Virus record (IMG/VR): IMGVR_UViG_3300033075_001021
Length of the DNA: 64,000 nt
DNA from: a virus
Taxonomy: Duplodnaviria; Caudoviricetes
Strand: one strand, 5' to 3'
In this document: piece after piece, positions 356 through 12,090 of the stretch
Numbering within the stretch: the first letter of the stretch is position 1
How the letters are laid out: each line of letters begins with the position of its first letter
Notes under the pieces: generated by a model
What the model was told of the DNA's origin: nothing
Database searches by the model: none
The model's input: only the letters and a program-made list of their open reading frames with translations
Translations under genes and position numbers: made by a program

Positions 356-1366
356 TTAATATAAATATCCCAATTTGTCGACTTCTTTTACGGCTTGTAT
401 AAACCTTTCTTGGTAGTCCCCCCCTATTACAACATATTGAATTTTCTTTGCGTCTAACTCAGATTTAATTTTGTTAAAATGTTCTTTTCTCCTTTCTGGG
501 AAATCACGGGTTCCATCATCAACCCAAGGTATATCGATATCCAACAATATATAAAGGTCAAAATATTGTTTAAAAATAACTTCACCTATTACAGTCGAGT
601 CAAATTGTTCACCAAGATACATTTTTCCAAACACCTTAGTCGTTATTGCTTCAGTATCAACAAAAAGAACCTTGTTACCCCTTTTTAGTTTCTCACTAAT
701 AAGTTTTTGATGACCAATTGCAATATTTTCAAAATCTAACGGTGTTAGATTTTCCGTGCCGCTAATCTCTGTATATGTTCTACCATACTCTTCAACATAA
801 TCAGTACCATAATGGGTTGCTAACTTCTTAACTAGCGTTGATTTACCTGTTGATTCTGGACCAATGATAACAACACGCTTTGTGAAGTATGGTTTTACCA
901 CATCAGGAATAAACTTCCAATTTGCATATGGATTTTCTCTAACTGCTGTTCCAGAAACAGCATAGTGACTTCTTGGTTGGTCAACCAACACGTGTTTAAT
1001 CCCCAAATATTCGGCAAACTCATCACCGTATTCTTCAGATGTAAAAACAGCATCCAACTTTTTTATGCGATTATAGACACTGGGGACCCAATATTTCTTA
1101 TAAAAAACATCAACCGATTCACACTCATGTGGATATTGTGGATTTGGGTCAGTACACCATATAATACGAATGTTAGGTTTATCTTTATAGATTTCCTTCA
1201 GCCAACCATACCTTAACCAGCCATCGATTGGTTGTGTTCCGTCAGAGCAAATCATAACGTGGGTTGTTTTACATTGCTCAGCTGCTGTATCAATTAAATA
1301 CAGATGCCCACGTTGCGGTGGCATGAATTTACCCAATACTAAACCGTTGTCATATTTTTTACCCAT
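356..1366 (-). CDS. nadR: NadR-like bifunctional NMN adenylyltransferase / ribosylnicotinamide kinase (no HTH)
   Basis: N-terminal GKFMPPQRGH (HIGH-like) and VSGTAVR motifs. C-terminal P-loop GPESTGKS, EYGRTY, LFVDT, PWVDDGTR. Confidence 0.9.
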   Translation of the reverse strand: MGKKYDNGLVLGKFMPPQRGHLYLIDTAAEQCKTTHVMICSDGTQPIDGWLRYGWLKEIYKDKPNIRIIWCTDPNPQYPHECESVDVFYKKYWVPSVYNRIKKLDAVFTSEEYGDEFAEYLGIKHVLVDQPRSHYAVSGTAVRENPYANWKFIPDVVKPYFTKRVVIIGPESTGKSTLVKKLATHYGTDYVEEYGRTYTEISGTENLTPLDFENIAIGHQKLISEKLKRGNKVLFVDTEAITTKVFGKMYLGEQFDSTVIGEVIFKQYFDLYILLDIDIPWVDDGTRDFPERRKEHFNKIKSELDAKKIQYVVIGGDYQERFIQAVKEVDKLGYLY

Positions 1367-1878
1367 TTTGTTGCTCCTTTAATTGAAAAACCGATTAAAA
1401 TAAAAAACAATATCGCTGACCAGTACATTCCTTGATTTAAAAACATTATTATAAAAAGTACATCAGCAATAATCCATGTAAAAAAACCATGAATATACTT
1501 TTTTGCCAAATACCAATTCCCTAACATACTTAGAAGAGTTGTCAAAACATCTAATTCTGCTTGTGGGTTATCAGTATATCTTTTTAACAAAGGTACCGTA
1601 ATAAATCCAATTAAACAAACAATTAATAGGTCTCTGACCCAAATATTGTGGTTTAATAATATGCAAGATTCATCTTGTGTCGCTTTCCAATAATACCAAC
1701 CATATATGCATTGTCCTAATATGATGGTATCGGCTATAACTTGACCATATAGATGCTCATTAAAGACTAGATAAATGTAAATCAACGTTGCAAGAATCGC
1801 TGAGGGCCAACAAAGCACGTTTACCTTTACAGTGTAATATGCTGAAATAAGTGTTAATATTACCGCTATTATTTCCAT
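1339..1878 (-). CDS. pnuC: PnuC-family nicotinamide riboside/vitamin transporter
   Basis: Multi-TM protein with YGWYYW, D..TT.LS..GNWYLAKKY and WIIAD motifs. Overlaps nadR and ends in TAG. Confidence 0.88.
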   Translation of the reverse strand: MEIIAVILTLISAYYTVKVNVLCWPSAILATLIYIYLVFNEHLYGQVIADTIILGQCIYGWYYWKATQDESCILLNHNIWVRDLLIVCLIGFITVPLLKRYTDNPQAELDVLTTLLSMLGNWYLAKKYIHGFFTWIIADVLFIIMFLNQGMYWSAILFFILIGFSIKGATKWVKNMTTV

Positions 1879-2051
1879 TACTCATCGAATAATTTTCTTT
1901 CCTTTAAGGAATTAAATAATTTATCCGCTCTTTCTTTTGCTTCACGAATAAACTTTATATGTTTGGCCCTTCGTATAATCTTACGAATACCACCAATTGT
2001 TTTTACTTTCTTACCCCTTTTGTTGCCCCAGTAAAGATATTGTCCTTTCAT
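1878..2051 (-). CDS. Small basic hypothetical protein (57 aa)
   Basis: MKGQYLYWGNKRGKKVKTIGGIRKIIRRAKHIKFIREAKERADKLFNSLKERKLFDE*. ATGA overlap with the TonB receptor stop and TAATG overlap with the pnuC start. Confidence 0.7.
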   Translation of the reverse strand: MKGQYLYWGNKRGKKVKTIGGIRKIIRRAKHIKFIREAKERADKLFNSLKERKLFDE

Positions 2052-4015
2052 ATTTTAATTCTTAAGGTTACAAAATAATTTGCCAATGCCGTTGGGAATA
2101 AAAATCGCTTATTGTTCATCGCATAGCCATTAAAATAGAACTTGTTATTTGTGATGTTATTACCTTGAAGTGACAACACAAGATTCTTATATGAATATGA
2201 TGCATTAAACCCAATGGTTGTACATGCTGGTACGCTAAACTGATTTTCAATGTCAATATAAGCCTTAGAATAAATTGACTGATTTACATTCATTGAAAAT
2301 GCCTTGTTTGTATAGGTCAATGATTGATTGAACATTCGATTAGGACTGAATAATTGTTGTTTATTATCAACACTAAAACGACTGTTTGAAATGCTGCCAT
2401 TCACGCTATACTGAAAGGATTTGTTAATTGTATAATCAATGTCAAATTCAATTCCCTTCCTAAAACTCTTGTCAACATTAATCATCATCGGTAAGCTATT
2501 TGCCCCCATCGGGCCAGCTGGAATGATTTCATTTTGAAATGACATGTAATACAAGTTTGCTTGTAATGTCAATTTATCACCTTTATGGTTTACCCCAAGT
2601 TCAAGGTCAACTACTTCCTCTGGTTTAACGTTGTTTAAATCAGTTAAGTAAAGACCACCATTAAATAAAATATTCCTTGTTGGTTCCCTATGCGACATAC
2701 CAATTGAATAGTAAACATCAGTGTTTTTATCCAAAAAATATTTAAAACCAACCTTTGGATTTGTAAATAACCAAGTGTATTTACCTAATGCTTTATCCCC
2801 AACATATTTAAAATCAACATACCTTGCTTGCAAATCAAAATACATCTTGAGTTCCTCAGGCCCAAAGATTAATTTAACAAAGCTACTGGCTTCATTTTTA
2901 TTTCCATAATTTTGGTAGTTGCTCTTCAATACACTACTGTCAACCATTACGAATTCAGTACCAAAGTGATTTCGCCTATATGTATTCAACGATAAACCAA
3001 CAGATAGCTTTATGTTATCATTTTTGTAATCATATTGTGTTATATAACCAGCCCAATTTGAATATTGATTCTCTTGTGCATAATAACCAAGTGTTGGTAA
3101 AGACTCTTTATTAAAGACATCGTAATTACCTTCCAAGTGATTAACAAATAAGATACTTGTTAGTTTACTTTGTTTATTAAAGATGTTGGTGTTATGTATT
3201 TGGATATGGGTTTGATTGAAAAAGTCTTTCCTGTCATTACCCCTAGGATTATCACGATAATTAACCTTCAGCACATCTTCATCAGATGCCTCCCACGCCA
3301 TTTGGTTTCGGCTAAATCCGCTAAACACAACAAATTTAGTAATGCGTTTTTCACCATAATACCCACGGGTATAAAATATACTACCACCGTGGCTTCCAGA
3401 ATTCCGCCTAAACCCATCAGTTGTCATCATACCAACATTTAAAAAGCTTGCGTGTTTATTTTTCAATCCGCTTGAATACGCAGCATTCAATCTGAAAGTA
3501 TTAAATGAACCACCACCAATTTGAACCTCAGAACCACGGTTTAAACCTGTCTTGCTTTGGAAATTAATAGACCCAATAAAGGCAGCGCTACCATTCGTTG
3601 ATGAACCAACCCCTCGTTGAATCTGAATTGATTGAATAGCGTTGATAAAGCTTGGGAAGTTTGATGTATACACACCATGGTCTTCAGGCTCATTTAATGG
3701 GACACTATTTAATGTCATATTAATGCGGTTCTGACTGGCACCTCGCATACTAACGTATGTATAGCCTTGTGAGTGACCACCATCTGTATTTGAATACATT
3801 GACGGATATGACCCTAATAAAATTGGTACCTCTTGACCTTGATAACTAGACTGAATGGCTGTATCCCCGATTGTTTTCTGGGTTATAGGGGTGAACTTAT
3901 CAGCCCTAACCGCAGTAACTAAAACAGGTGACATTTCGGTAATCTTTACTGAATCCTGTGCAAATGATTGATAACCAATTAGTGATACTAATGCAAATAC
4001 AAATAATTTTTTCAT
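2048..4015 (-). CDS. TonB-dependent outer-membrane receptor (Bacteroidota vitamin-uptake type)
   Basis: Signal peptide MKKLFVFALVSLIGYQSFAQ; plug motifs SMRGASQNRINMTLNSVPLNEPED and IQIQRGVGSSTNG..AF.GSIN; beta-barrel-like alternating pattern; LQGNNITN near the C-terminus. Confidence 0.88.
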   Translation of the reverse strand: MKKLFVFALVSLIGYQSFAQDSVKITEMSPVLVTAVRADKFTPITQKTIGDTAIQSSYQGQEVPILLGSYPSMYSNTDGGHSQGYTYVSMRGASQNRINMTLNSVPLNEPEDHGVYTSNFPSFINAIQSIQIQRGVGSSTNGSAAFIGSINFQSKTGLNRGSEVQIGGGSFNTFRLNAAYSSGLKNKHASFLNVGMMTTDGFRRNSGSHGGSIFYTRGYYGEKRITKFVVFSGFSRNQMAWEASDEDVLKVNYRDNPRGNDRKDFFNQTHIQIHNTNIFNKQSKLTSILFVNHLEGNYDVFNKESLPTLGYYAQENQYSNWAGYITQYDYKNDNIKLSVGLSLNTYRRNHFGTEFVMVDSSVLKSNYQNYGNKNEASSFVKLIFGPEELKMYFDLQARYVDFKYVGDKALGKYTWLFTNPKVGFKYFLDKNTDVYYSIGMSHREPTRNILFNGGLYLTDLNNVKPEEVVDLELGVNHKGDKLTLQANLYYMSFQNEIIPAGPMGANSLPMMINVDKSFRKGIEFDIDYTINKSFQYSVNGSISNSRFSVDNKQQLFSPNRMFNQSLTYTNKAFSMNVNQSIYSKAYIDIENQFSVPACTTIGFNASYSYKNLVLSLQGNNITNNKFYFNGYAMNNKRFLFPTALANYFVTLRIKI

Positions 4016-4051: not shown

Positions 4052-4079
4052 GGGGGAATTTTTGACATAACCAAAAAAT

Positions 4080-4105
4080 AAATGGGGAAAATATTTTCCC
4101 CATTT
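4080..4105 (-). terminator. Rho-independent terminator
   Basis: AAATGGGGAAAATATTTTCCCCATTT inverted repeat followed by a T-rich tail on the minus strand. Confidence 0.65.
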
Positions 4106-4106
4106 A

Positions 4107-4442
4107 TTATGCCACTGGATTTGATTTTAAGTAGTCCTCTTTTGAGGTCTTCTTTTTTGGTTTCCAACCACGAGCAATACGAGCTTTATGAACATTTTTC
4201 TTATGTTTTTTCTTATTCCTGTAATTACCAATTAGGGTTGTTGTCTCTTCATAACTCTTAATTATTTGGTCTAAAAGATTGAGCTTTTCTTTATCTGTCA
4301 TACTTGAAGTCTTATATGTTCGGTTCCAATATTTCATATAAGGTGTTAATTTTTTCTCATCTTCAGTCAACATTGAATTTAAGATATCGTGTATCTCATT
4401 TGAAAATTTGCATTTAATCATTGCGATAGGACTTTGTTTCAT
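4107..4442 (-). CDS. Hypothetical basic protein
   Basis: 111-aa ORF followed by a terminator. Confidence 0.6.
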   Translation of the reverse strand: MKQSPIAMIKCKFSNEIHDILNSMLTEDEKKLTPYMKYWNRTYKTSSMTDKEKLNLLDQIIKSYEETTTLIGNYRNKKKHKKNVHKARIARGWKPKKKTSKEDYLKSNPVA

Positions 4443-4506: not shown

Positions 4507-4539
4507 TTATCCTGTTGGTCCTCTAATTGTCTATTTCAT
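4507..4539 (-). other. Candidate minigene ATG AAA TAG ACA ATT AGA GGA CCA ACA GGA TAA (MK*TIRGPTG)
   Basis: Starts 11 nt after the Pth2-like stop, in an AT-rich context with A at -3. Amber codon at position 3. Confidence 0.4.
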
Positions 4540-4550
4540 AATTATAAATT

Positions 4551-4919
4551 TTAGTTATTGTTATTGGTTGTAATTAACTCTTTACCATATAGCGGTAAGT
4601 TACTGCATAGCTTTCTTGCATCAGTAGACGCCTCAAAAGCAACGGCTGTAATTTGATTGTTAATATCTGGTTCTCTGAAGATGGTATATTTGATACCACG
4701 AAGACTGGCTTTGACAATAAGGTCTATCAAAGACTGTTCATCTTTTGTTGTGAGAATTGCTAAATGATTGGATTGTTTATGCCATTCTGTTGATACCTGA
4801 GGGTATTCGTGTTGAAAATCAATGGCAGCATGTGCGGCTTGGACGCATTGTTGTGGAAGGGATAAATCACGTCTTGTGATTACTCTAAGTTTTTCTGTGT
4901 TAGAAATCTAGTGTGTCAT
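4551..4919 (-). CDS. Peptidyl-tRNA hydrolase 2 (Pth2/PTRHD1-like) family protein with an in-frame TAG at codon 4
   Basis: MTH*ISNTEKLRVITRRDLSLPQQCVQAAHAAIDFQHEYP...FREPDINNQITAVAFEASTDARKLCSNLPLYGKEL. The RRDL, QAAHA and NLPL motifs are Pth2-like. TAG at 4908-4910; no other ATG/GTG/TTG start before the conserved motifs. Confidence 0.8.
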
Positions 4920-4967
4920 AACTGTTTGTTTTTTAATAAATATACTGTTTTTGTTAAAAATATCAAG

Positions 4968-5039
4968 TGACCCAGAGGGGATTCGAACCCCTACCCACAA
5001 TTTTAGAGATTGGTGTGCTGCCATTACAACCACAGGGCC
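4968..5039 (-). tRNA. Amber suppressor tRNA, anticodon CUA
   Basis: GGCCCTG/CTGGGTC acceptor stem, anticodon loop CTCTAAA, T-arm AGGGG-TTCGAAT-CCCCT, A73; CCA not encoded. TATCTTTG promoter box at 5050-5057. Confidence 0.88.
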
Positions 5040-5082
5040 AATTATACCACAAAGATAAGTGGTATTTTTGAAATTACCAAAT

Positions 5083-5907: not shown

Positions 5908-6588
5908 TTAGACAAGTAAATTTACACGACCTTTATAGATATCTTTTATACTAGCTGTTTTATTGGTAATATGGTCAATGACAATCCCATCTTTAACACG
6001 ATATGTCCTACGTTTATCACTTCGCTCACCAGTACCAATCTGTTCCCTTCTTGTCTCAGATTCTTCTTCCATAAAACCAGTTAAATAATAGTGATTAACT
6101 CTTCGTTTAATTTCTTTATAGGCATCTTCACGATTACTTAATTGGCTTCTACCATCACGTACAACCTTTATACCAGTTGGGATATGTGTCATAATGACAC
6201 AAGAGTCCGTGGTGTTTTTATGTTGACCACCTTTGCCAGTTCCTCTGGTTGTTTCAATCTTTAGTTCATGTTGGGGAATTTCAATCTCTTTAAATGATTG
6301 ATTTTCAAGTACGGCAATGGTTATGGTACTGGTATGCACCCTACCACGATTTTCTGTCGGTGGTACACGTTGCCATCTGTGTGAACCTATTTCGTTTTGG
6401 AAAAAATCTTTGACATTTTGGCCGCTTAGTCAGATTGAAGCAAAGCCATCCCGTTCTTCGAGAACTCTTCAGTTGAAGTTATTGTTTTTGGCCGCTTTGA
6501 TATAGATGTCTTTCATATCATGAACTAGCAATTTGGAATCTTGTCCACCTTCGCTAGCCCTAATCTCTAGTGTAATTTCGTTTTTCAT
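5908..6588 (-). CDS. Class I peptide chain release factor, RF1-like (PxT), lacking domain 1, with two in-frame TGA codons
   Basis: MKNEITLEIRASEGGQDSKLLVHDMKDIYIKAAKNNNFN*RVLEERDGFASI*LSGQNVKDFFQNEIGSHRWQRVPPTENRGRVHTS...GKGGQHKNTTDS...RSQLSNR...GERSDKRRTY. TGA at 6469-6471 and 6430-6432; one frame throughout (227 codons). Confidence 0.9.
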
Positions 6589-8062: not shown

Positions 8063-8854
8063 TTATTTGACTGATTTCCAAATCAGTCCACGATTTATTT
8101 TACTAATTGTTTCTTGTGCGACCATAAATTTATTAGCAATGGTTTTTTGTTTAACACCTTCAGCAAGCATTCTCTTTATATCTAAAACATCTTCTTTTGA
8201 TAATTTAGTATTATTTATATTTTCACCACATATTTGAGAATTTCTGCCTTTATTCCATCCAACTAATAAATAGTTCTTTAAATCTTCTCGCCGTATTTTC
8301 TTGTTTTCACCATCTTTAGTTATCCAACAAGTACCATATTGAGAATTTTGTTTACCTAAACCAGAATCTTTGCTCGATTCACTCATTTTTTGTTTTGAGG
8401 CCTCCGAATGTTTCTTACCCAACCAGTTTAATTGCCAATCATTTTTACGTTCACCATTTTGGTACTCTTTTTTTCTAGCAGAAGAAATTTTTTGTGAAAA
8501 TTCTAATCTAAAATTTTTATCTGATTGTAATTTTTCTCTAAATGCCTGATTATGTTTTAAATTCCATCCGACACCACCATCAACTATATTCATACACATC
8601 TTATCAATCAACATATCTGATGTTATAACTTCCTTCTCGGCCTCAACCAATAATTCTCTCGAATCAAAGAACTCTAATATCTCTTTTAGATGATTTTCTA
8701 CACCATATTTTCTTATCGAACGTCTTAATACTTTACCAGACCCCATATAACCGTCTTCAAGGTTACTAGTACTGTGCATTCCGATATAATATCTACCTGT
8801 TATAACACATGTTGTTTTATACAGGTAGTGAATGTTTGCTTTTTTTCTAGGCAT
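8063..8854 (-). CDS. Free-standing GIY-YIG homing endonuclease (Seg-like) with NUMOD3 and a C-terminal HTH
   Basis: YLYKTTCVITGRYYIGMH...YMGSG; GKKHSEASKQKMSES (NUMOD3); KLSKEDVLDIK...IANKFMVAQETISKI. Confidence 0.85.
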   Translation of the reverse strand: MPRKKANIHYLYKTTCVITGRYYIGMHSTSNLEDGYMGSGKVLRRSIRKYGVENHLKEILEFFDSRELLVEAEKEVITSDMLIDKMCMNIVDGGVGWNLKHNQAFREKLQSDKNFRLEFSQKISSARKKEYQNGERKNDWQLNWLGKKHSEASKQKMSESSKDSGLGKQNSQYGTCWITKDGENKKIRREDLKNYLLVGWNKGRNSQICGENINNTKLSKEDVLDIKRMLAEGVKQKTIANKFMVAQETISKINRGLIWKSVK

Positions 8855-8902
8855 ATCTATATATTTCTATATAAATATGCGCTAGGTACAAAAAAGTCAT
8901 CG

Positions 8903-9256
8903 TGGAGAATATCGGAATCGAACCGATGTCTTGTGCATTCTTCAAAAGCTTTCTACATGTTTAGAACAGAACTTTCTAGTTCTTCGCAATATCTTGCTGT
9001 TATGGTTAACAAGAAAACCACGGAGTTATTTAGCGTCTAACTCAGAACTGACGGTTTTTGGTGGTCTACCACCATCGCAGGATTAGGCTACTGCAAGCTC
9101 TCCTGAACCCACAGTTAGGACTGCTTCGTCAAGGAAATTTTCTGATACGATAAAATCGTTGTCGTTTGTTTTTTGATAGACATTTTAAAGTGCATTCCAA
9201 TCTAGCACTACATGCTTACTAATTACGACTATACGCAATCAATACCTGTATTCCCC
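8903..9256 (-). ncRNA. ssrA: tmRNA
   Basis: GGGGAAT/ATTCTCC-A acceptor with G3:U70; T-arm ATCGG-TTCGATT-CCGAT; internal tag ORF (A)DNDFIVSENFLDEAVLTVGSGELAVA*. Confidence 0.92.
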
Positions 9257-9351
9257 ATAAATTAAAGAACTTCGATAATAAATATATCGTTTTTTACATT
9301 TGTCATCCAAAATGTAATACAAATATACTACATTTTGGATGAAAATGCAAG

Positions 9352-9651
9352 TTATTTTGCAAGTTTTTTTTCTTCTCGCTGTTTTTTTACCGTTGCAGCT
9401 CTTCGTTGACCAGCAACCCAATGCCTCATTTTTTCTTCAGGTGTCCATTTACCGTAGTTTTTCGGTGGTGAAATAATTCGATTAATATCTGGTGGTGTTA
9501 CCTGATATTTTCTAGCTATTTCATCAATCGTCATACCCAGACGTTTTTTCATATCCTTGATAGTCTCCTTATCCTTTTCAGTTAAGTTATAATAGTTACT
9601 AAAAAGAATTTTTTCCTCAGGTGTTAAAACTGGTACTTCTGTTTTAGGCAT
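9352..9651 (-). CDS. Hypothetical HTH-like protein
   Basis: GMTIDEIARKYQVTPPDINRII resembles an HTH; 1-nt overlap with clpP. Confidence 0.55.
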   Translation of the reverse strand: MPKTEVPVLTPEEKILFSNYYNLTEKDKETIKDMKKRLGMTIDEIARKYQVTPPDINRIISPPKNYGKWTPEEKMRHWVAGQRRAATVKKQREEKKLAK

Positions 9652-10352
9652 TATTTTTTCCCTTTTGGTTTTGTAGTAATAATGTTATCAATTATACCGT
9701 AGTTTAAGGCTTCTTCAGCTGATAACCAAAGGTCCCTTTCAGCATCTTTCATAACTTCTTTTGGGTCTTTGTTAGTATATTCGCCGAGCAAGCCAAATAA
9801 CAAGTCATTATACTTCTCACCTTCAGCAATTGAGCGTCTTATATCTTGGATGTTACCTTCAGCCCCTGTTGATACTTGGTGAAGCATTACACGGCTAAAT
9901 CTTAGTGAATGACGCTTTCCCTTGGTTCCAGCACCCAATAAAATACTACCCATGCTAGCTGCCATACCTGTGTTGATGGTAACAATGTCAGATGATACAT
10001 AATTCATTACATCCACAATTGATAAACCAGATTTTACGCTTCCACCTGGTGTGTCTACGTGAAGGGTAATGTCATTTTTATCCAATGTGTCCAAGAACAT
10101 CAACTGTGCTTGAACAACAGTACTCATCCTGTCATTCACTGGGCCAGCAAGCCAAATAATTCTGTCCATCATCATTCTTGAGAAGATATCCATCTGAGTG
10201 ACATTTAACGGCCTTTCTTCAAGAATGTATGGTGTTAATGATGCTTGGGTACCATAGATTCTATTTTGAATCTGTTCCCAATTGTAAAATTCCATTCCTG
10301 TAACGCCCATATGTTTAATGGCGTAATCTCTAAATTCGTTCGTTAGATTCAT
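9651..10352 (-). CDS. clpP: ATP-dependent Clp protease proteolytic subunit
   Basis: DIFSRMMMDRII, TPGGSV, GMAASMGS (Ser), MLHQ (His), ERDLW (Asp). Confidence 0.95.
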   Translation of the reverse strand: MNLTNEFRDYAIKHMGVTGMEFYNWEQIQNRIYGTQASLTPYILEERPLNVTQMDIFSRMMMDRIIWLAGPVNDRMSTVVQAQLMFLDTLDKNDITLHVDTPGGSVKSGLSIVDVMNYVSSDIVTINTGMAASMGSILLGAGTKGKRHSLRFSRVMLHQVSTGAEGNIQDIRRSIAEGEKYNDLLFGLLGEYTNKDPKEVMKDAERDLWLSAEEALNYGIIDNIITTKPKGKK

Positions 10353-10600
10353 AGTTCTGTTGTTATGTAAATTGGTGTGTTATCTCCGACCCAAGCGCAA
10401 CGAATATTAAAGTCAAAATATTCATATGCTTCTTCGTATGTCATACCATCTCTTTCAACCATAATTTGTAACATGGTTTCAATTGAATACGCGGCAACGG
10501 GGCCAAGATTAGGTCTTTCAGCAAGCCCTAAAATTGCATCATCAAATCCATCACAAAATAAAGCGTCTGGATTTATTTCAGCGATTTCATCTCTGGTCAT
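10349..10600 (-). CDS. Conserved phage hypothetical protein
   Basis: DGFDDAILG...AYS...EEAYEYFDFNI..AWVGDNTP; coupled to both neighbours. Confidence 0.7.
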   Translation of the reverse strand: MTRDEIAEINPDALFCDGFDDAILGLAERPNLGPVAAYSIETMLQIMVERDGMTYEEAYEYFDFNIRCAWVGDNTPIYITTEL

Positions 10601-11025
10601 TACTGTTGATTTTCGGCTGCTTCTTCCTCACCTTGTGCAAAGAGCGCTTTTATTGACTCGTGTAATGTTTCATACTTGTCGTAACCATACTTACGAAGCA
10701 ATAAGGAGAATGTGTTTACGTCAGGCTTAATGATAACGATTTTTCCTCGTTCATCGTCAAAATAGATTTGAGCAATTAATTCTTCAATAACCATTTCTTT
10801 TTGCTCAGTTTCAAGTTGTTCAAAAATGGTCTCATTCAAAAGGATGATGATATCCTCGTTGGTCATGTGTTTCAAAAGGTCGTTTGCTTTTACGACTTTT
10901 CCGATTTCTTTCAATCGATTGTTGGCTAGAATTTTGATATTAACTTCTCTTAAGTTATCAATCTGGTCAACAAATCTACTGAAGAGTTCTTGGGTGTCTT
11001 CAAATACTTCTTCAAATTTTGCCAT
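10600..11025 (-). CDS. Hypothetical protein (phage metallopeptidase-like fold, HE motif not intact)
   Basis: DIIILLNETIFEQL...EELIAQI...KPDV..F..LLRKYG pattern. Confidence 0.55.
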   Translation of the reverse strand: MAKFEEVFEDTQELFSRFVDQIDNLREVNIKILANNRLKEIGKVVKANDLLKHMTNEDIIILLNETIFEQLETEQKEMVIEELIAQIYFDDERGKIVIIKPDVNTFSLLLRKYGYDKYETLHESIKALFAQGEEEAAENQQ

Positions 11026-11064
11026 AGATAATTGTGATTTTAATATACAAATATACTAAAATAA

Positions 11065-12090
11065 TCACTGAGTTGCAACTTTCTCCCCAAGTTTTTTCAA
11101 TTCAATTATTAAATCTTTCTCTTCATCAGAAATTTGGTTTGGTACAAGCAAGTCAATTTCAACTAACATATCACCACGAACATCTGAGTTCATTGGTTTT
11201 AACCCCTTATTCTGAATTCTAAGCACTTTCCCAACTTTAGATAATTCAGGTAAAGATATTCTTATTTTTCCACCTTCTATTGTTGGTACCTCTATCTTAT
11301 CACCTAAAATAAGTTGCGGATAAGTTACTTTTATCGTCATCTTTAGGTCATCATTAACACGAACAAATTTTTCATGTGGGAGAACCATAATAGTTATTAT
11401 CAAATGACCAGCAATAGCATTTTTAGCGGCATGTCCTTTACCTTCCATTATCATCCGCATTCCATCGGCAACACCAGCTGGTATCCCTAAATCAAGAGTT
11501 TCTTCGACTGATTTAACTCCAGTTCCAGAACACGCATCACAAGATGTTTCGTATACATCACCAGCGCCAGCACATGTTGGACAAGTTTGTACGTTTCTTA
11601 TATCGCCATAAGGTGTTTTTAATATTTCGACAACCATACCACCGCCATTACATGTGGTACAAATCTTTGGATTGCTACCACCTTTTCCATGACAATTTGT
11701 ACATGTTTCATTTCTTTGATATTTGAATTTCTTTGATACACCAGAATAAACCTCCTCAAGAGTTAATTTAACAATCAAACTCATATCAGGTCCCCTATTT
11801 GCTTGTTTTTGGCTAAATCCTGACATTCCAAATTTTCTAAGAAATTCTTCCATTGGGTTGTAACCTGCACCACCCATATTTGGCTGTTGGTGACCATATA
11901 AGTCATATTTGTGCCTCTTATCTTTATCAGATAAGGTTTCATATGCTTCGGTAATTTCTTTAAACGCATCAGCGTCACCACCTTTATCTGGATGATGTGT
12001 CATTGCTAACTTACGATACGCCTTTTTAATATCGTCAAGTGAACAGCTCTTGTTTAATCCAAGAACTTCATAATAATCCCTTTTAGCCAT
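11065..12090 (-). CDS. dnaJ: DnaJ chaperone
   Basis: DYYEVLGL...HHPD J-domain, four CxxCxGxG repeats, C-terminal domain. Confidence 0.95.

What the first reader, a model, noticed from the sequence alone, without database searches (positions are those of the whole stretch)
4551..5039. Pth2-family gene with an amber codon at position 4, directly downstream of an amber suppressor tRNA
Seen: ATG ACA CAC TAG ATT... is followed by 118 sense codons of Pth2-like sequence, and the tRNA(CUA) gene ends 48 nt upstream. The tRNA has a host-type TATCTTTG promoter box and the Pth2 gene has an ATATTTAT motif. The canonical Pth2 GK lysine is replaced (LPQQCVQAAHA), as in PTRHD1-like variants. Inference: expression depends on charged suppressor tRNA outcompeting RF1. 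Without suppression the mRNA is an MTH minigene, which generates the drop-off peptidyl-tRNA that Pth enzymes recycle, so a feedback loop is possible.
Basis: partly seen in the sequence, partly recalled or inferred. Interest (0 to 1): 0.82.

Follow-up and report, generated by a model that had tools for sequence, protein, structure and literature searches.

The report
Amber-gated phage Pth2 gene with suppressor tRNA
A giant phage that otherwise uses the normal genetic code keeps one stop codon (TAG) right after the start of a peptidyl-tRNA-hydrolase-like gene, beside its only TAG-reading tRNA; about 60 related phages share this layout, so the tRNA very likely switches the enzyme on, a control I found in no paper.

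Summary
The gene runs ATG(4919) ACA CAC TAG ATT, then 117 more sense codons, then TAA(4551). A tRNA(CUA) at 4967-5039 ends 47 nt upstream.

The protein has a confident Pth2 fold but lacks the canonical GK lysine.

The early TAG is a family trait. 72 of 85 homologous loci, mostly from 100-480 kb phage contigs, have TAG at codon 2-5. In the first five codons TAG outnumbers CAA/CAG 71 to 4. In the rest of the gene the count is 7 to 471.

A tRNA(CUA) lies within 3 kb in 60 of the 72 loci with an early TAG, against 1 of the 13 without.

This is not code-15 recoding. The window and four complete relatives read well under table 11, and TAG ends 7-9% of their ORFs. Each relative has 40-62 tRNAs but only one or two tRNA(CUA), always beside this gene.

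Three results support read-through from the ATG:
- One lineage has an early TGA with a tRNA(UCA).
- A partner gene, fused to the hydrolase in cultured phage pT24, carries its own early TAG.
- Shine-Dalgarno boxes are spaced for the ATG.

Why the enzyme is gated remains inference. Two withheld reports of this scan cover the same stretch.

The parts
5050..5057 (-). TATCTTTG box (Bacteroidota-type -7 motif TAnnTTTG), 10 nt upstream of the tRNA. A possible promoter for the unit.
   Evidence: Read directly and listed. The same box sits 4-22 nt upstream of several other minus-strand starts (5885, 11048, 12106, 27056, 31567, 32560). Function was not tested.
4967..5039 (-). tRNA with anticodon CUA (amber suppressor). 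Its amino-acid identity is unknown.
   Evidence: ARAGORN. Rfam tRNA scores 47.1 bits against a gathering score of 29. It is not initiator-like: G1-C72, and no run of three G-C pairs in the anticodon stem (sequence).
4551..4919 (-). Pth2-fold hydrolase-like gene, 122 codons including the amber codon, stop TAA at 4551-4553.
   Evidence: Translation. Pfam PTH2 E=8e-8. A profile of the family matches archaeal and human Pth2 structures at E=4e-10. The AlphaFold model has pLDDT 91.4. Foldseek TM-scores to Pth2 structures are 0.68-0.78.
4908..4910 (-). In-frame amber codon, codon 4: the gate.
   Evidence: It is conserved at codon 2-5 in 72 of 85 loci. It lies in the disordered N-terminal tail of the model: residues 1-4 have pLDDT below 50, and the fold starts at K10.
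4507..4539 (-). Mini-ORF ATG AAA TAG ACA ATT AGA GGA CCA ACA GGA TAA (M-K-amber-T-I-R-G-P-T-G), 11 nt after the Pth2-like stop. Probably a second amber-dependent element.
   Evidence: Read. M-x(1-3)-amber-...-RGP mini-ORFs lie downstream of the Pth2-like gene in 7 independent loci: the window, L001/L029, L005, L012, L016, L026 and L032.
4107..4442 (-). 111-aa ORF of unknown function, the last gene of the putative unit.
   Evidence: No Pfam match. The same family follows the mini-ORF in L005.
4077..4108 (-). Terminator-like hairpin (14 pairs, then a T-run) that closes the unit.
   Evidence: No terminator-like site was found between the tRNA and the Pth2-like gene.

Best explanation
This is a start-proximal amber gate, read by the phage's own suppressor tRNA, in a phage that otherwise uses the standard code.

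Proposed mechanism. Ribosomes start at ATG 4919 and meet UAG at codon 4. With host RF1 alone they release a tripeptide and no enzyme is made. Once the tRNA(CUA) encoded 47 nt upstream has accumulated and been charged, it decodes the UAG and the full 122-aa Pth2-fold hydrolase is made. The tRNA is probably on the same transcript. Enzyme output would then follow suppressor activity relative to RF1.

The inserted residue does not matter, because it lies in a disordered tail ahead of the fold.

What is shown: the anatomy, the fold, conservation of the TAG itself rather than of Gln, linkage to the genome's sole tRNA(CUA), standard code in the lineage, and covariation of stop type with anticodon in one lineage.

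What is inferred: that the tRNA is charged and suppresses, and why the enzyme is gated.

My preferred purpose is feed-forward matching. Suppression of ordinary UAG stops creates read-through, non-stop complexes and dropped peptidyl-tRNA. UAG ends 7-9% of the ORFs in related phages and also ends host genes. A hydrolase acting on (peptidyl/aminoacyl)-tRNA would then be supplied in proportion. This would fit the neighbouring tmRNA, ClpP, DnaJ and release-factor-like genes.
For: 1. The early TAG is conserved.
- It is present in 72 of 85 loci, 63 with distinct contexts. It is codon 3 in 36, codon 4 in 17, codon 5 in 7 and codon 2 in 3.
- 52 of 60 clusters at 80% identity have it.

2. TAG is selected, not Gln.
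- In the first 5 codons TAG appears 71 times and CAA/CAG 4 times. In the rest of the gene the counts are 7 and 471.
- TAG-less homologues have Ala, Thr, Arg or other residues at that position.

3. The gene is linked to a tRNA(CUA).
- One lies within 3 kb on the same strand in 60 of 72 early-TAG loci, against 1 of 13 loci without (Fisher 2e-7). After removing near-duplicates the counts are 42/51 against 1/10, P=2e-5.
- No protein-coding neighbour is shared by more than 15 loci.
- Four complete genomes with 40-62 tRNAs have only 1-2 tRNA(CUA). These lie 24, 177, 525 and about 1,800 nt from the gene.

4. The lineage uses the standard code.
- ORF coverage is 0.89-0.93 under table 11 in G002, G004, G005, G008 and the window. 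Reading TAG as Q adds no more than the TGA=W control does. TAG ends 7-9% of ORFs.
- The window's pnuC ends in TAG with a full-length Pfam match. The baseplate gene and all the large ORFs contain no TAG.

5. Stop type covaries with anticodon. L075/L077 start ATG, six codons, TGA, ATT, and carry a tRNA(UCA), in a locus where TGA is the commonest ordinary stop.

6. Translation starts at the ATG. GGAG boxes lie 6-9 nt upstream of the ATG in 15 or more loci.

7. A partner helical-domain gene has its own early TAG at codon 3-9 in 11 loci. It is fused to the Pth2-like domain in pT24, L024 and L075/77.

8. The context is under nucleotide-level selection. The base after the TAG is always a purine (A 50, G 13). 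The preceding codon ends in G in 28 of 60 cases, against a 15% background.

9. The TAG lies in a disordered tail of the model.
Against: - There is no expression, charging or proteomic evidence. Suppression by this tRNA is inferred only from comparative data.
- The tRNA has a U6:U67 mismatch and a G2:U71 pair. The family's tRNA(CUA) genes are very diverse, 68 distinct sequences, so their identity and efficiency are unknown.
- 12 early-TAG loci have no tRNA(CUA) within 3 kb. It may lie further away; this was not checked.
- The protein tree is too poorly resolved to show that loss of the TAG and loss of the tRNA were independent, repeated events.
- The canonical catalytic Lys of Pth2 is missing and NCBIfam equivalog cut-offs are not reached. 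Peptidyl-tRNA hydrolase activity is therefore unproven.
- The proposed purpose, matching to the read-through burden, has no direct test. A weak ribosome-binding site could lower expression more simply.
Confidence: 0.7

Rival explanations
1. Same gate, opposite purpose: a homeostat. The Pth2-like enzyme hydrolyses the ester on the suppressor tRNA itself, either as aminoacyl- or as short peptidyl-tRNA(CUA). More suppression would then make more enzyme, and the enzyme would lower suppression. This would hold read-through at a level the phage's own TAG-terminated genes can tolerate. It is negative feedback in the manner of prfB or infC.
For: - The tRNA(CUA) is the only conserved neighbour.
- TAG is still a real stop for 7-9% of ORFs, so unchecked suppression would be costly.
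- The enzyme lacks the canonical Pth2 lysine, which leaves room for a changed substrate.
- It is fused or paired with a helical domain whose best structural matches are the tRNA-binding part of an A-adding enzyme and HD domains. These matches are weak: Foldseek E of about 7e-3, TMq 0.56-0.59.
Against: - There is no evidence of substrate specificity.
- It is unclear why a phage would keep a suppressor only to restrain it.
- The same gate also sits on the partner gene and on a mini-ORF. That looks more like a small regulon than a single feedback loop.
Confidence: 0.15
2. ATG-X-X-TAG is a tiny upstream ORF. The enzyme is made by re-initiation or non-canonical initiation at the next codon (ATT), independently of the tRNA, perhaps tuned by IF3 as at the AUU start of infC.
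For: - ATT follows the TAG in 40 of 63 contexts. ATA, ATC or ATG follow in 6 more.
- A mini-ORF abutting a start is a known coupling layout.
Against: - GTA, GTT, AGC, GGC, AAA, AAC, GAA or AGA follow the TAG in 17 contexts.
- The Ile or Val is also kept in TAG-less homologues, for example M-T-A-I in L057, so it is a protein-level residue.
- This reading does not explain the tRNA(CUA) co-occurrence or the TGA with tRNA(UCA) switch.
- In the partner gene the TAG is followed by AAC, AAA, CTT or CTA.
Confidence: 0.05
3. Ordinary genome-wide TAG-to-Gln recoding (genetic code 15), as in Lak and crAss-like phages. The TAG would then be just one Gln codon among many.
For: - A suppressor tRNA(CUA) is encoded.
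- A few relatives (L002, L067, L083, L052, L040, L023) have a second, internal TAG in this gene. In L052 it aligns with Gln or Glu.
- Some pipelines already translate this TAG as Q.
Against: - In the 64-kb window no other gene needs TAG read-through, and that includes a baseplate gene.
- Four complete relatives are standard code, and TAG ends 36-53 ORFs of 60 aa or more in each.
- The strict position specificity would not arise from neutral codon choice: TAG 71 against CAR 4 early, 7 against 471 later.
Confidence: 0.03
4. A pseudogene, or a sequencing or assembly artefact.
For: A stop at codon 4 would normally mark a dead gene.
Against: - The same feature is present in more than 60 independent assemblies and in the cultured phage pT24.
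- The rest of the ORF is intact, with 13 invariant residues across 34 diverse sequences.
Confidence: 0.01

Closest known systems
Stop-codon recoding in phages with phage-encoded suppressor tRNAs (code 15, TAG to Gln): Lak, crAss-like and other gut phages (Borges et al., bioRxiv 10.1101/2021.08.26.457843; Peters et al., PMC9523058)
   Same: - A phage-encoded tRNA(CUA).
- In-frame TAG makes translation of some phage genes depend on suppression, which has been proposed as a timing device.
   Different: - There, dozens of mainly late or lytic genes carry TAGs scattered along their length, and code 15 raises coding density.
- Here the genomes are standard code and TAG is still a stop. The gate is one position-specific codon at the very start of one or two particular gene families, physically linked to the tRNA gene.
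- The preprint's text does not contain the word 'hydrolase'.
prfB (RF2) autoregulation through a conserved early in-frame UGA, and infC through its AUU start
   Same: A translation-factor-type gene carries a conserved recoding signal near its 5' end, so that its output reports the state of the translation machinery.
   Different: - prfB needs a +1 frameshift, and its product acts on that very stop codon.
- Here read-through is in frame and needs a dedicated tRNA. Whether the product feeds back on UAG decoding is unknown.
PTH2 genes of jumbo phages (Iyer et al. 2021, PMC7824862)
   Same: The same protein superfamily in large phages, often among tRNA genes. That paper proposes it releases peptides from damaged tRNAs during ribosome rescue.
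   Different: - That paper mentions no early stop codon and no suppressor linkage.
- Mycobacteriophage Myrna gp84 and the Xanthomonas XacN1 homologue lack the gate.
Lambda bar minigenes and host Pth (established knowledge, not tested here)
   Same: Without suppression the mRNA begins with a 2-5 codon ORF ended by a stop. That is the geometry that promotes peptidyl-tRNA drop-off.
   Different: - bar minigenes are stand-alone and harmful when Pth is low.
- Here the minigene is the 5' end of a Pth-like gene, and read-through turns it into a normal ORF. Drop-off was not tested.
Canonical archaeal and eukaryotic Pth2 (PF01981; e.g. 2zv3, 1xty, 1q7s) and human PTRHD1
   Same: - The fold matches, with TM-scores of 0.68-0.78.
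- The shared motifs are R-x-D-L, Q..HA and T-A.
   Different: - The GK lysine is missing.
- The acidic residue is an invariant Glu-Pro-Asp.
- NCBIfam Pth2 equivalog scores are far below the cut-off.
- Likeness to PTRHD1 rests only on my memory of its sequence and was not tested.

Membership tests
Pth2 superfamily (Pfam PF01981) | Sequence match above the Pfam gathering score | tested here: met
   32.9 bits against a cut-off of 23, E=8e-8. A profile of the family matches solved Pth2 chains at E=4e-10.
Pth2 superfamily (Pfam PF01981) | Pth2 alpha/beta fold | tested here: met
   AlphaFold model pLDDT 91.4. The top 12 Foldseek matches are Pth2 structures, with TM-scores of 0.68-0.78.
Canonical Pth2 enzyme (equivalog) | Catalytic Lys of the GK motif (Lys18 in the Sulfolobus enzyme, from my own knowledge of the literature) | tested here: not met
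   The GK(GK) segment of 2zv3 aligns to a variable position (Y, Q, A, T or S) plus a gap. The window has L-P-Q-Q.
Canonical Pth2 enzyme (equivalog) | Catalytic Asp of the D-A-G motif | tested here: inconclusive
   It aligns with the invariant E83 of an E-P-D motif. D85 is also invariant.
Canonical Pth2 enzyme (equivalog) | NCBIfam equivalog score cut-off | tested here: not met
   28.4 bits against 126 (NF003314) and 26.6 against 82 (TIGR00283).
Canonical Pth2 enzyme (equivalog) | Hydrolysis of peptidyl-tRNA | not testable with these tools
   Needs an enzyme assay or complementation of pth(ts).
Code-15 (TAG to Gln) recoded phages | Phage-encoded tRNA(CUA) | tested here: met
Code-15 (TAG to Gln) recoded phages | Many genes interrupted by in-frame TAG, with coding density rising under code 15 | tested here: not met
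   In the window only this gene needs it. In four complete relatives coverage is 0.89-0.93 under table 11, and the gain with TAG=Q is no larger than with the TGA=W control.
Code-15 (TAG to Gln) recoded phages | TAG no longer used as a terminator | tested here: not met
   pnuC at 1339-1878 ends in TAG with a full-length Pfam match. TAG ends 36-53 ORFs of 60 aa or more per relative genome, with short in-frame extensions in G002.
prfB-type autoregulatory recoding site | Conserved early in-frame stop in a translation-related gene | tested here: met
   TAG at codon 2-5 in 72 of 85 loci.
prfB-type autoregulatory recoding site | A frameshift is needed and the product acts on that stop | tested here: not met
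   The ORF continues in the same frame. Action of the product on UAG decoding cannot be tested here.
bar-type minigene | ORF of 2-5 codons ended by a stop | tested here: met
   1-4 sense codons precede the TAG in all 63 contexts.
bar-type minigene | Causes peptidyl-tRNA drop-off and is toxic when Pth is limiting | not testable with these tools
   Needs an in vivo assay.

The most novel reading that the evidence does not exclude
Standard-code giant phages carry a small, self-contained 'amber regulon'. One dedicated suppressor tRNA unlocks a handful of genes that each begin with Met, 1-4 codons and a stop. These are the Pth2-like hydrolase, its tRNA-binding-like partner, and an RGP mini-ORF leader. 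The arrangement could act as a translational switch or as a sensor of the balance between suppressor and RF1. It may also be the evolutionary seed from which full TAG reassignment in phages grew. The cassette can change stop type, as in the TGA with tRNA(UCA) lineage.
Probability: 0.5. Interest if true: 0.9.

Novelty: new variant of a known kind. Interest (0 to 1): 0.82.

Why it matters
It would show that phage suppressor tRNAs are not only tools of wholesale code change. In standard-code genomes they would also serve as dedicated translational switches for specific genes.

It gives a natural counterpart of the amber-gated circuits built in synthetic biology. It also offers a plausible first step on the path to stop-codon reassignment.

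It explains why the gene is mis-annotated: truncated starts in pT24 BPT24_235 and in JGI calls.

It links a Pth2-like enzyme of unknown substrate functionally to a suppressor tRNA.

A cultured system exists in which every step can be tested: Tenacibaculum phage pT24.

Tried and rejected
- My first assumption was a crAss- or Lak-like code-15 phage. I rejected it after comparing ORFs in the window under table 11 and TAG=Q and analysing four complete relatives.
- ATT as the start codon: rejected.
- Initiator-like tRNA(CUA) starting at the UAG: rejected. The tRNA has G1-C72 and no run of three G-C pairs in the anticodon stem, and an ATG is always present upstream.
- Identity of the residue inserted at UAG: not resolved. 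Internal TAGs in a few homologues align with Gln or Glu (L052) or with variable positions. The tRNA(CUA) genes are too diverse to assign.
- Test of independent evolutionary contrasts for loss of the TAG against loss of the tRNA: inconclusive. The tree of a 115-aa protein has only 9 well-supported inner branches.
- Avoidance of TAG stops in late-gene blocks as indirect evidence of suppression. It is striking in G008 (211 consecutive ORFs) and partly in G002, but absent in G004 and G005, so I did not use it.
- Near-identical DNA search in the phage collection: only tRNA-Met hits.
- No whole genome is held for the window.
- The partner domain has no Pfam or NCBIfam match, and its structural matches are weak.
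- Six literature searches and three full-text look-ups found no description of an early stop in phage Pth2 genes.

Full report
**1. Observation**

The feature is on the minus strand. The sequence reads ATG(4919-4917) ACA CAC TAG(4910-4908) ATT TCT AAC and continues for 118 sense codons after the TAG, to TAA at 4553-4551.

Under table 11 there is no ORF of 100 aa or more here. The first canonical in-frame start after the TAG is a TTG at residue 64.

ARAGORN places a tRNA with anticodon CUA at 4967-5039(-). Rfam's tRNA model scores it 47.1 bits against a gathering score of 29. The gap to the ATG is 47-48 nt.

TATCTTTG lies 10 nt upstream of the tRNA, and ATATTTAT lies 16 nt upstream of the ATG. 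No terminator-like hairpin separates the tRNA from the gene. A strong one at 4108-4077 follows the next ORF.

The likely unit is therefore: box, tRNA(CUA), Pth2-like gene, an 11-codon mini-ORF, a 111-aa ORF, terminator.

**2. The protein**

- Read with TAG=Q, the 122-aa product matches Pfam PTH2 at E=8e-8.
- A 34-sequence family profile (A2) matches archaeal and human Pth2 structures at E=4e-10.
- The AlphaFold model is confident, with pLDDT 91.4. All its top Foldseek matches are Pth2 structures, with TM-scores of 0.68-0.78.
- Residues 1-4 have pLDDT below 50, and the fold begins at the invariant K10-L11. The residue inserted at the TAG is therefore structurally irrelevant.
- The family keeps R16, D18, Q27, H30, A31, W46, S50, E83-P84-D85 and T91.
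- The GK lysine of canonical Pth2 aligns to a variable position, and NCBIfam equivalog cut-offs are not reached.

It is a Pth2-fold hydrolase-like protein whose substrate is unproven.

**3. The early TAG is a family trait**

The nearest records in the phage collection are four uncultured giant phages of 462-735 kb. All four start ATG, 1-2 codons, TAG, ATT.

A scan of IMG/VR gave 80 more loci at 39-70% identity, many on contigs of 100-480 kb. Including the window, 72 of 85 loci have TAG at codon 2-5 after an ATG. These give 63 distinct contexts: codon 3 in 36, codon 4 in 17, codon 5 in 7, codon 2 in 3. 52 of 60 clusters at 80% identity have the early TAG.

In the first five codons TAG occurs 71 times and CAA/CAG 4 times. 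In the rest of the genes the counts are 7 and 471. TAG-less homologues have Ala, Thr, Arg or other residues at that position and keep the same N-terminal length. An example is M-T-A-I-K-E-G-D against M-A-amber-I-K-E-G-D. The stop codon itself is being conserved, not a glutamine.

The context is also constrained at the nucleotide level:
- The base after the TAG is always a purine (A 50, G 13).
- The next codon is ATT in 40 cases.
- The preceding codon ends in G in 28 of 60 cases, against a 15% background.
- Rare synonymous codons are preferred there: AAG 12 against AAA 1, ACG 8, TCG 6, CTA 7.

**4. Linkage to the suppressor tRNA**

A tRNA(CUA) lies within 3 kb on the same strand in 60 of the 72 early-TAG loci, but in only 1 of the 13 others (Fisher 2e-7). 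After removing near-duplicates the counts are 42/51 against 1/10, P=2e-5. The median distance is 591 nt.

No protein-coding neighbour is shared by more than 15 loci.

Four complete relatives have 40-62 tRNAs each but only one or two tRNA(CUA). These lie 177 nt upstream (G002), 24 nt downstream (G008), 525 nt downstream (G005) and about 1.8 kb downstream (G004) of the Pth2-like gene.

The protein tree is too poorly resolved to turn this association into independent contrasts.

**5. The lineage is not recoded**

In the window, 54 minus-strand ORFs of 80 aa or more end TAA 41, TGA 11 and TAG 2. None but this gene needs TAG read-through. That includes a baseplate-wedge gene and all ORFs of 700-1,225 aa. 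pnuC (1339-1878) ends in TAG with a full-length Pfam match.

G002 is a 368,549-bp genome rated 100% complete by CheckV. Its baseplate protein is 70% identical to the window's. It was fetched whole, along with G004, G005 and G008.
- All four genomes have ORF coverage of 0.89-0.93 under table 11.
- Reading TAG as Q adds no more coverage than the TGA=W control.
- TAG ends 7-9% of ORFs, and the in-frame extensions after it are short in G002.
- In G002 the Pth2-like gene is the only robust case of a gene that needs TAG read-through.

**6. Support for read-through from the ATG**

(a) L075/L077 start ATG, six codons, TGA, ATT, with no usable start before the invariant K-L. They carry a tRNA(UCA), in a locus where TGA is the commonest ordinary stop. 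Stop type and anticodon have switched together.

(b) GGAG boxes lie 6-9 nt upstream of the ATG in at least 15 loci. That is too far from the codon after the TAG.

(c) The codon after the TAG is GTA, GTT, AGC, GGC, AAA, AAC, GAA or AGA in 17 contexts.

(d) A second family of about 195 aa is helical, with an H-D-x-G-K-P-Y-C ... F-P-N-H motif.
- Its model has pLDDT 94.
- Its best but weak structural matches are the tRNA-binding part of the Aquifex A-adding enzyme and HD domains.
- It lies immediately upstream of the Pth2-like gene in 11 loci (immediately downstream in L003). Each copy carries its own TAG at codon 3-9.
- It is fused to the Pth2-like domain in pT24, L024 and L075/77.

(e) Homing-endonuclease insertions in L005 and L019 duplicated the 5' end, and both copies keep ATG-x-(x)-TAG.

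(f) Seven independent loci, the window among them, have a mini-ORF of the form M, 1-3 residues, amber, 0-5 residues, R-G-P, then 0-5 residues and a stop. It lies downstream of the gene.

**7. A cultured example**

Tenacibaculum phage pT24 (LC168164) begins its gene ATG AAA TAG ATA. It has an annotated 'tRNA-Sup' 2.5 kb upstream. Its GenBank CDS BPT24_235 starts 105 nt too late, at an internal Met.

Public protein sets hold the family in two forms. Some are read through with Q (P0001, P0002, P0067). Others are truncated (P0026, P0050).

Mycobacteriophage Myrna gp84 and the XacN1 homologue lack the gate.

**8. Mechanism**

Shown: the anatomy, the fold, selection for the TAG, linkage to the sole tRNA(CUA), standard code, and one covarying switch of stop type.

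Inferred: the tRNA is charged and competes with RF1, so enzyme output follows suppressor activity.

The purpose of the gate is the weakest step.
- I favour feed-forward matching of a (peptidyl/aminoacyl)-tRNA hydrolase to the read-through burden that a suppressor creates in a genome and host that still use UAG stops. The neighbourhood fits this: a release-factor-like gene with in-frame TGAs (5908-6588), a tmRNA (8902-9256), ClpP and DnaJ.
- The main alternative is a homeostat in which the enzyme acts on the suppressor tRNA itself.

**9. Prior knowledge**

- The Borges et al. preprint describes suppressor tRNAs, release factors and synthetases as code-change genes in recoded phages. It does not contain the word 'hydrolase'.
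- Iyer et al. note PTH2 in jumbo phages without any stop-codon feature.
- A 2026 jumbo-phage survey treats suppressor tRNAs only in recoded genomes.
- Further searches found nothing closer.
- Earlier notes of this scan flagged the same stretch.

**10. Verdict**

The gate operates in standard-code giant phages as a conserved cassette of a tRNA and its client genes. I rate it a new variant of suppressor-tRNA-dependent regulation in phages.

Noticed in passing
window 4507-4539 (-); also L001:3343, L005:4479, L012:1228, L016:3720, L026:3348, L032:3954: A conserved mini-ORF of the form M, 1-3 residues, amber, 0-5 residues, R-G-P, then 0-5 residues and a stop. Examples are MKqTIRGPTG, MMqIIRGPT and MKDTqIRGP. 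It lies downstream of the Pth2-like gene in 7 independent loci. In the window and in L005 it precedes the same unknown 111-aa gene family. RGP recalls the RAGP and RAPP arrest motifs, so it may be a leader peptide that senses suppression.
   Followed up: partly
L034:2406-3002, L036:2412-3002, L041:2399-2986, L069:2410-2988, L003:3995-4582 and others; fused form at L165:2971-3921 (pT24): A helical partner family of about 195 aa with an H-D-x-G-K-P-Y-C ... F-P-N-H motif. It lies directly upstream of the Pth2-like gene, overlapping its start in several loci (downstream in L003), and always has its own TAG at codon 3-9. It is fused to the Pth2-like domain in pT24, L024 and L075/77. It has no Pfam match and only weak structural likeness to the A-adding enzyme body and to HD domains.
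   Followed up: partly
L075 and L077, gene start near 2950-3013; tRNA(UCA) at L075:6191-6264(-) and L077:5599-5672(-): The fusion gene starts ATG, six codons, TGA, ATT, with an opal suppressor tRNA in the locus. TGA is the commonest ordinary stop there. The gate has switched stop type together with the anticodon.
   Followed up: partly
window 5908-6588 (-): A release-factor-like gene (Pfam PCRF and RF-1 domains) that is readable in full only if in-frame TGA codons are read through. RF-1-domain genes also occur within 3 kb of the Pth2-like gene in 6 loci.
   Followed up: partly
L165 (Tenacibaculum phage pT24, LC168164) 2971-3921: The GenBank CDS BPT24_235 starts at an internal Met, 105 nt downstream of the match start (135 nt downstream of the ATG). 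It misses the conserved R-x-D-L and Q..HA motifs, because the TAG at codon 3 was taken as a stop.
   Followed up: yes
L005:2196-2996 and L019:1709-2452: A 5' remnant of the Pth2-like gene, including ATG-x-(x)-TAG, is fused in frame to a homing-endonuclease-like ORF. A fresh Pth2-like start that again carries the TAG follows. The endonuclease would itself be amber-gated.
   Followed up: partly
L082 about 2960-3000: The sequence is ATG AAG CGG ATC TAA C, with the Pth2-like frame continuing in +1. There is no start codon in that frame, and a tRNA-Gly lies just upstream. This is either an early-stop +1 frameshift site of the prfB type or a 1-nt assembly error.
   Followed up: no
all early-TAG loci: The codon before the TAG is strongly biased towards G-ending or rare synonymous codons: AAG 12 against AAA 1, ACG 8, TCG 6, CTA 7. 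The base after the TAG is always a purine. The signal is unexplained.
   Followed up: partly
G008 concatenated coordinates 89733-284721; G002 120-180 kb and 240-280 kb: There are long runs of ORFs with no TAG stop: 211 consecutive ORFs in G008. TAG stops cluster elsewhere in those genomes. The pattern is not seen in G004 or G005. It could mark genes expressed while suppression is active.
   Followed up: partly
L141:18342-18665 (-) (G005) and L098:19211-19789 (+) (G002): Two further candidate amber-gated genes. One is a radical-SAM-like ORF with TAG at codon 4, ahead of its CxxxCxxC motif (Pfam E=3e-8). The other is a 193-aa ORF that starts M-E-E-F-K-amber.
   Followed up: partly
window 356-4015 and 8063-12090 (-): The module sits between a TonB-receptor / PnuC / AAA_28 (NadR-like) block and a protein-quality-control block made of tmRNA 8902-9256, ClpP 9654-10352, a metallopeptidase-like gene and DnaJ 11068-12090.
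   Followed up: no
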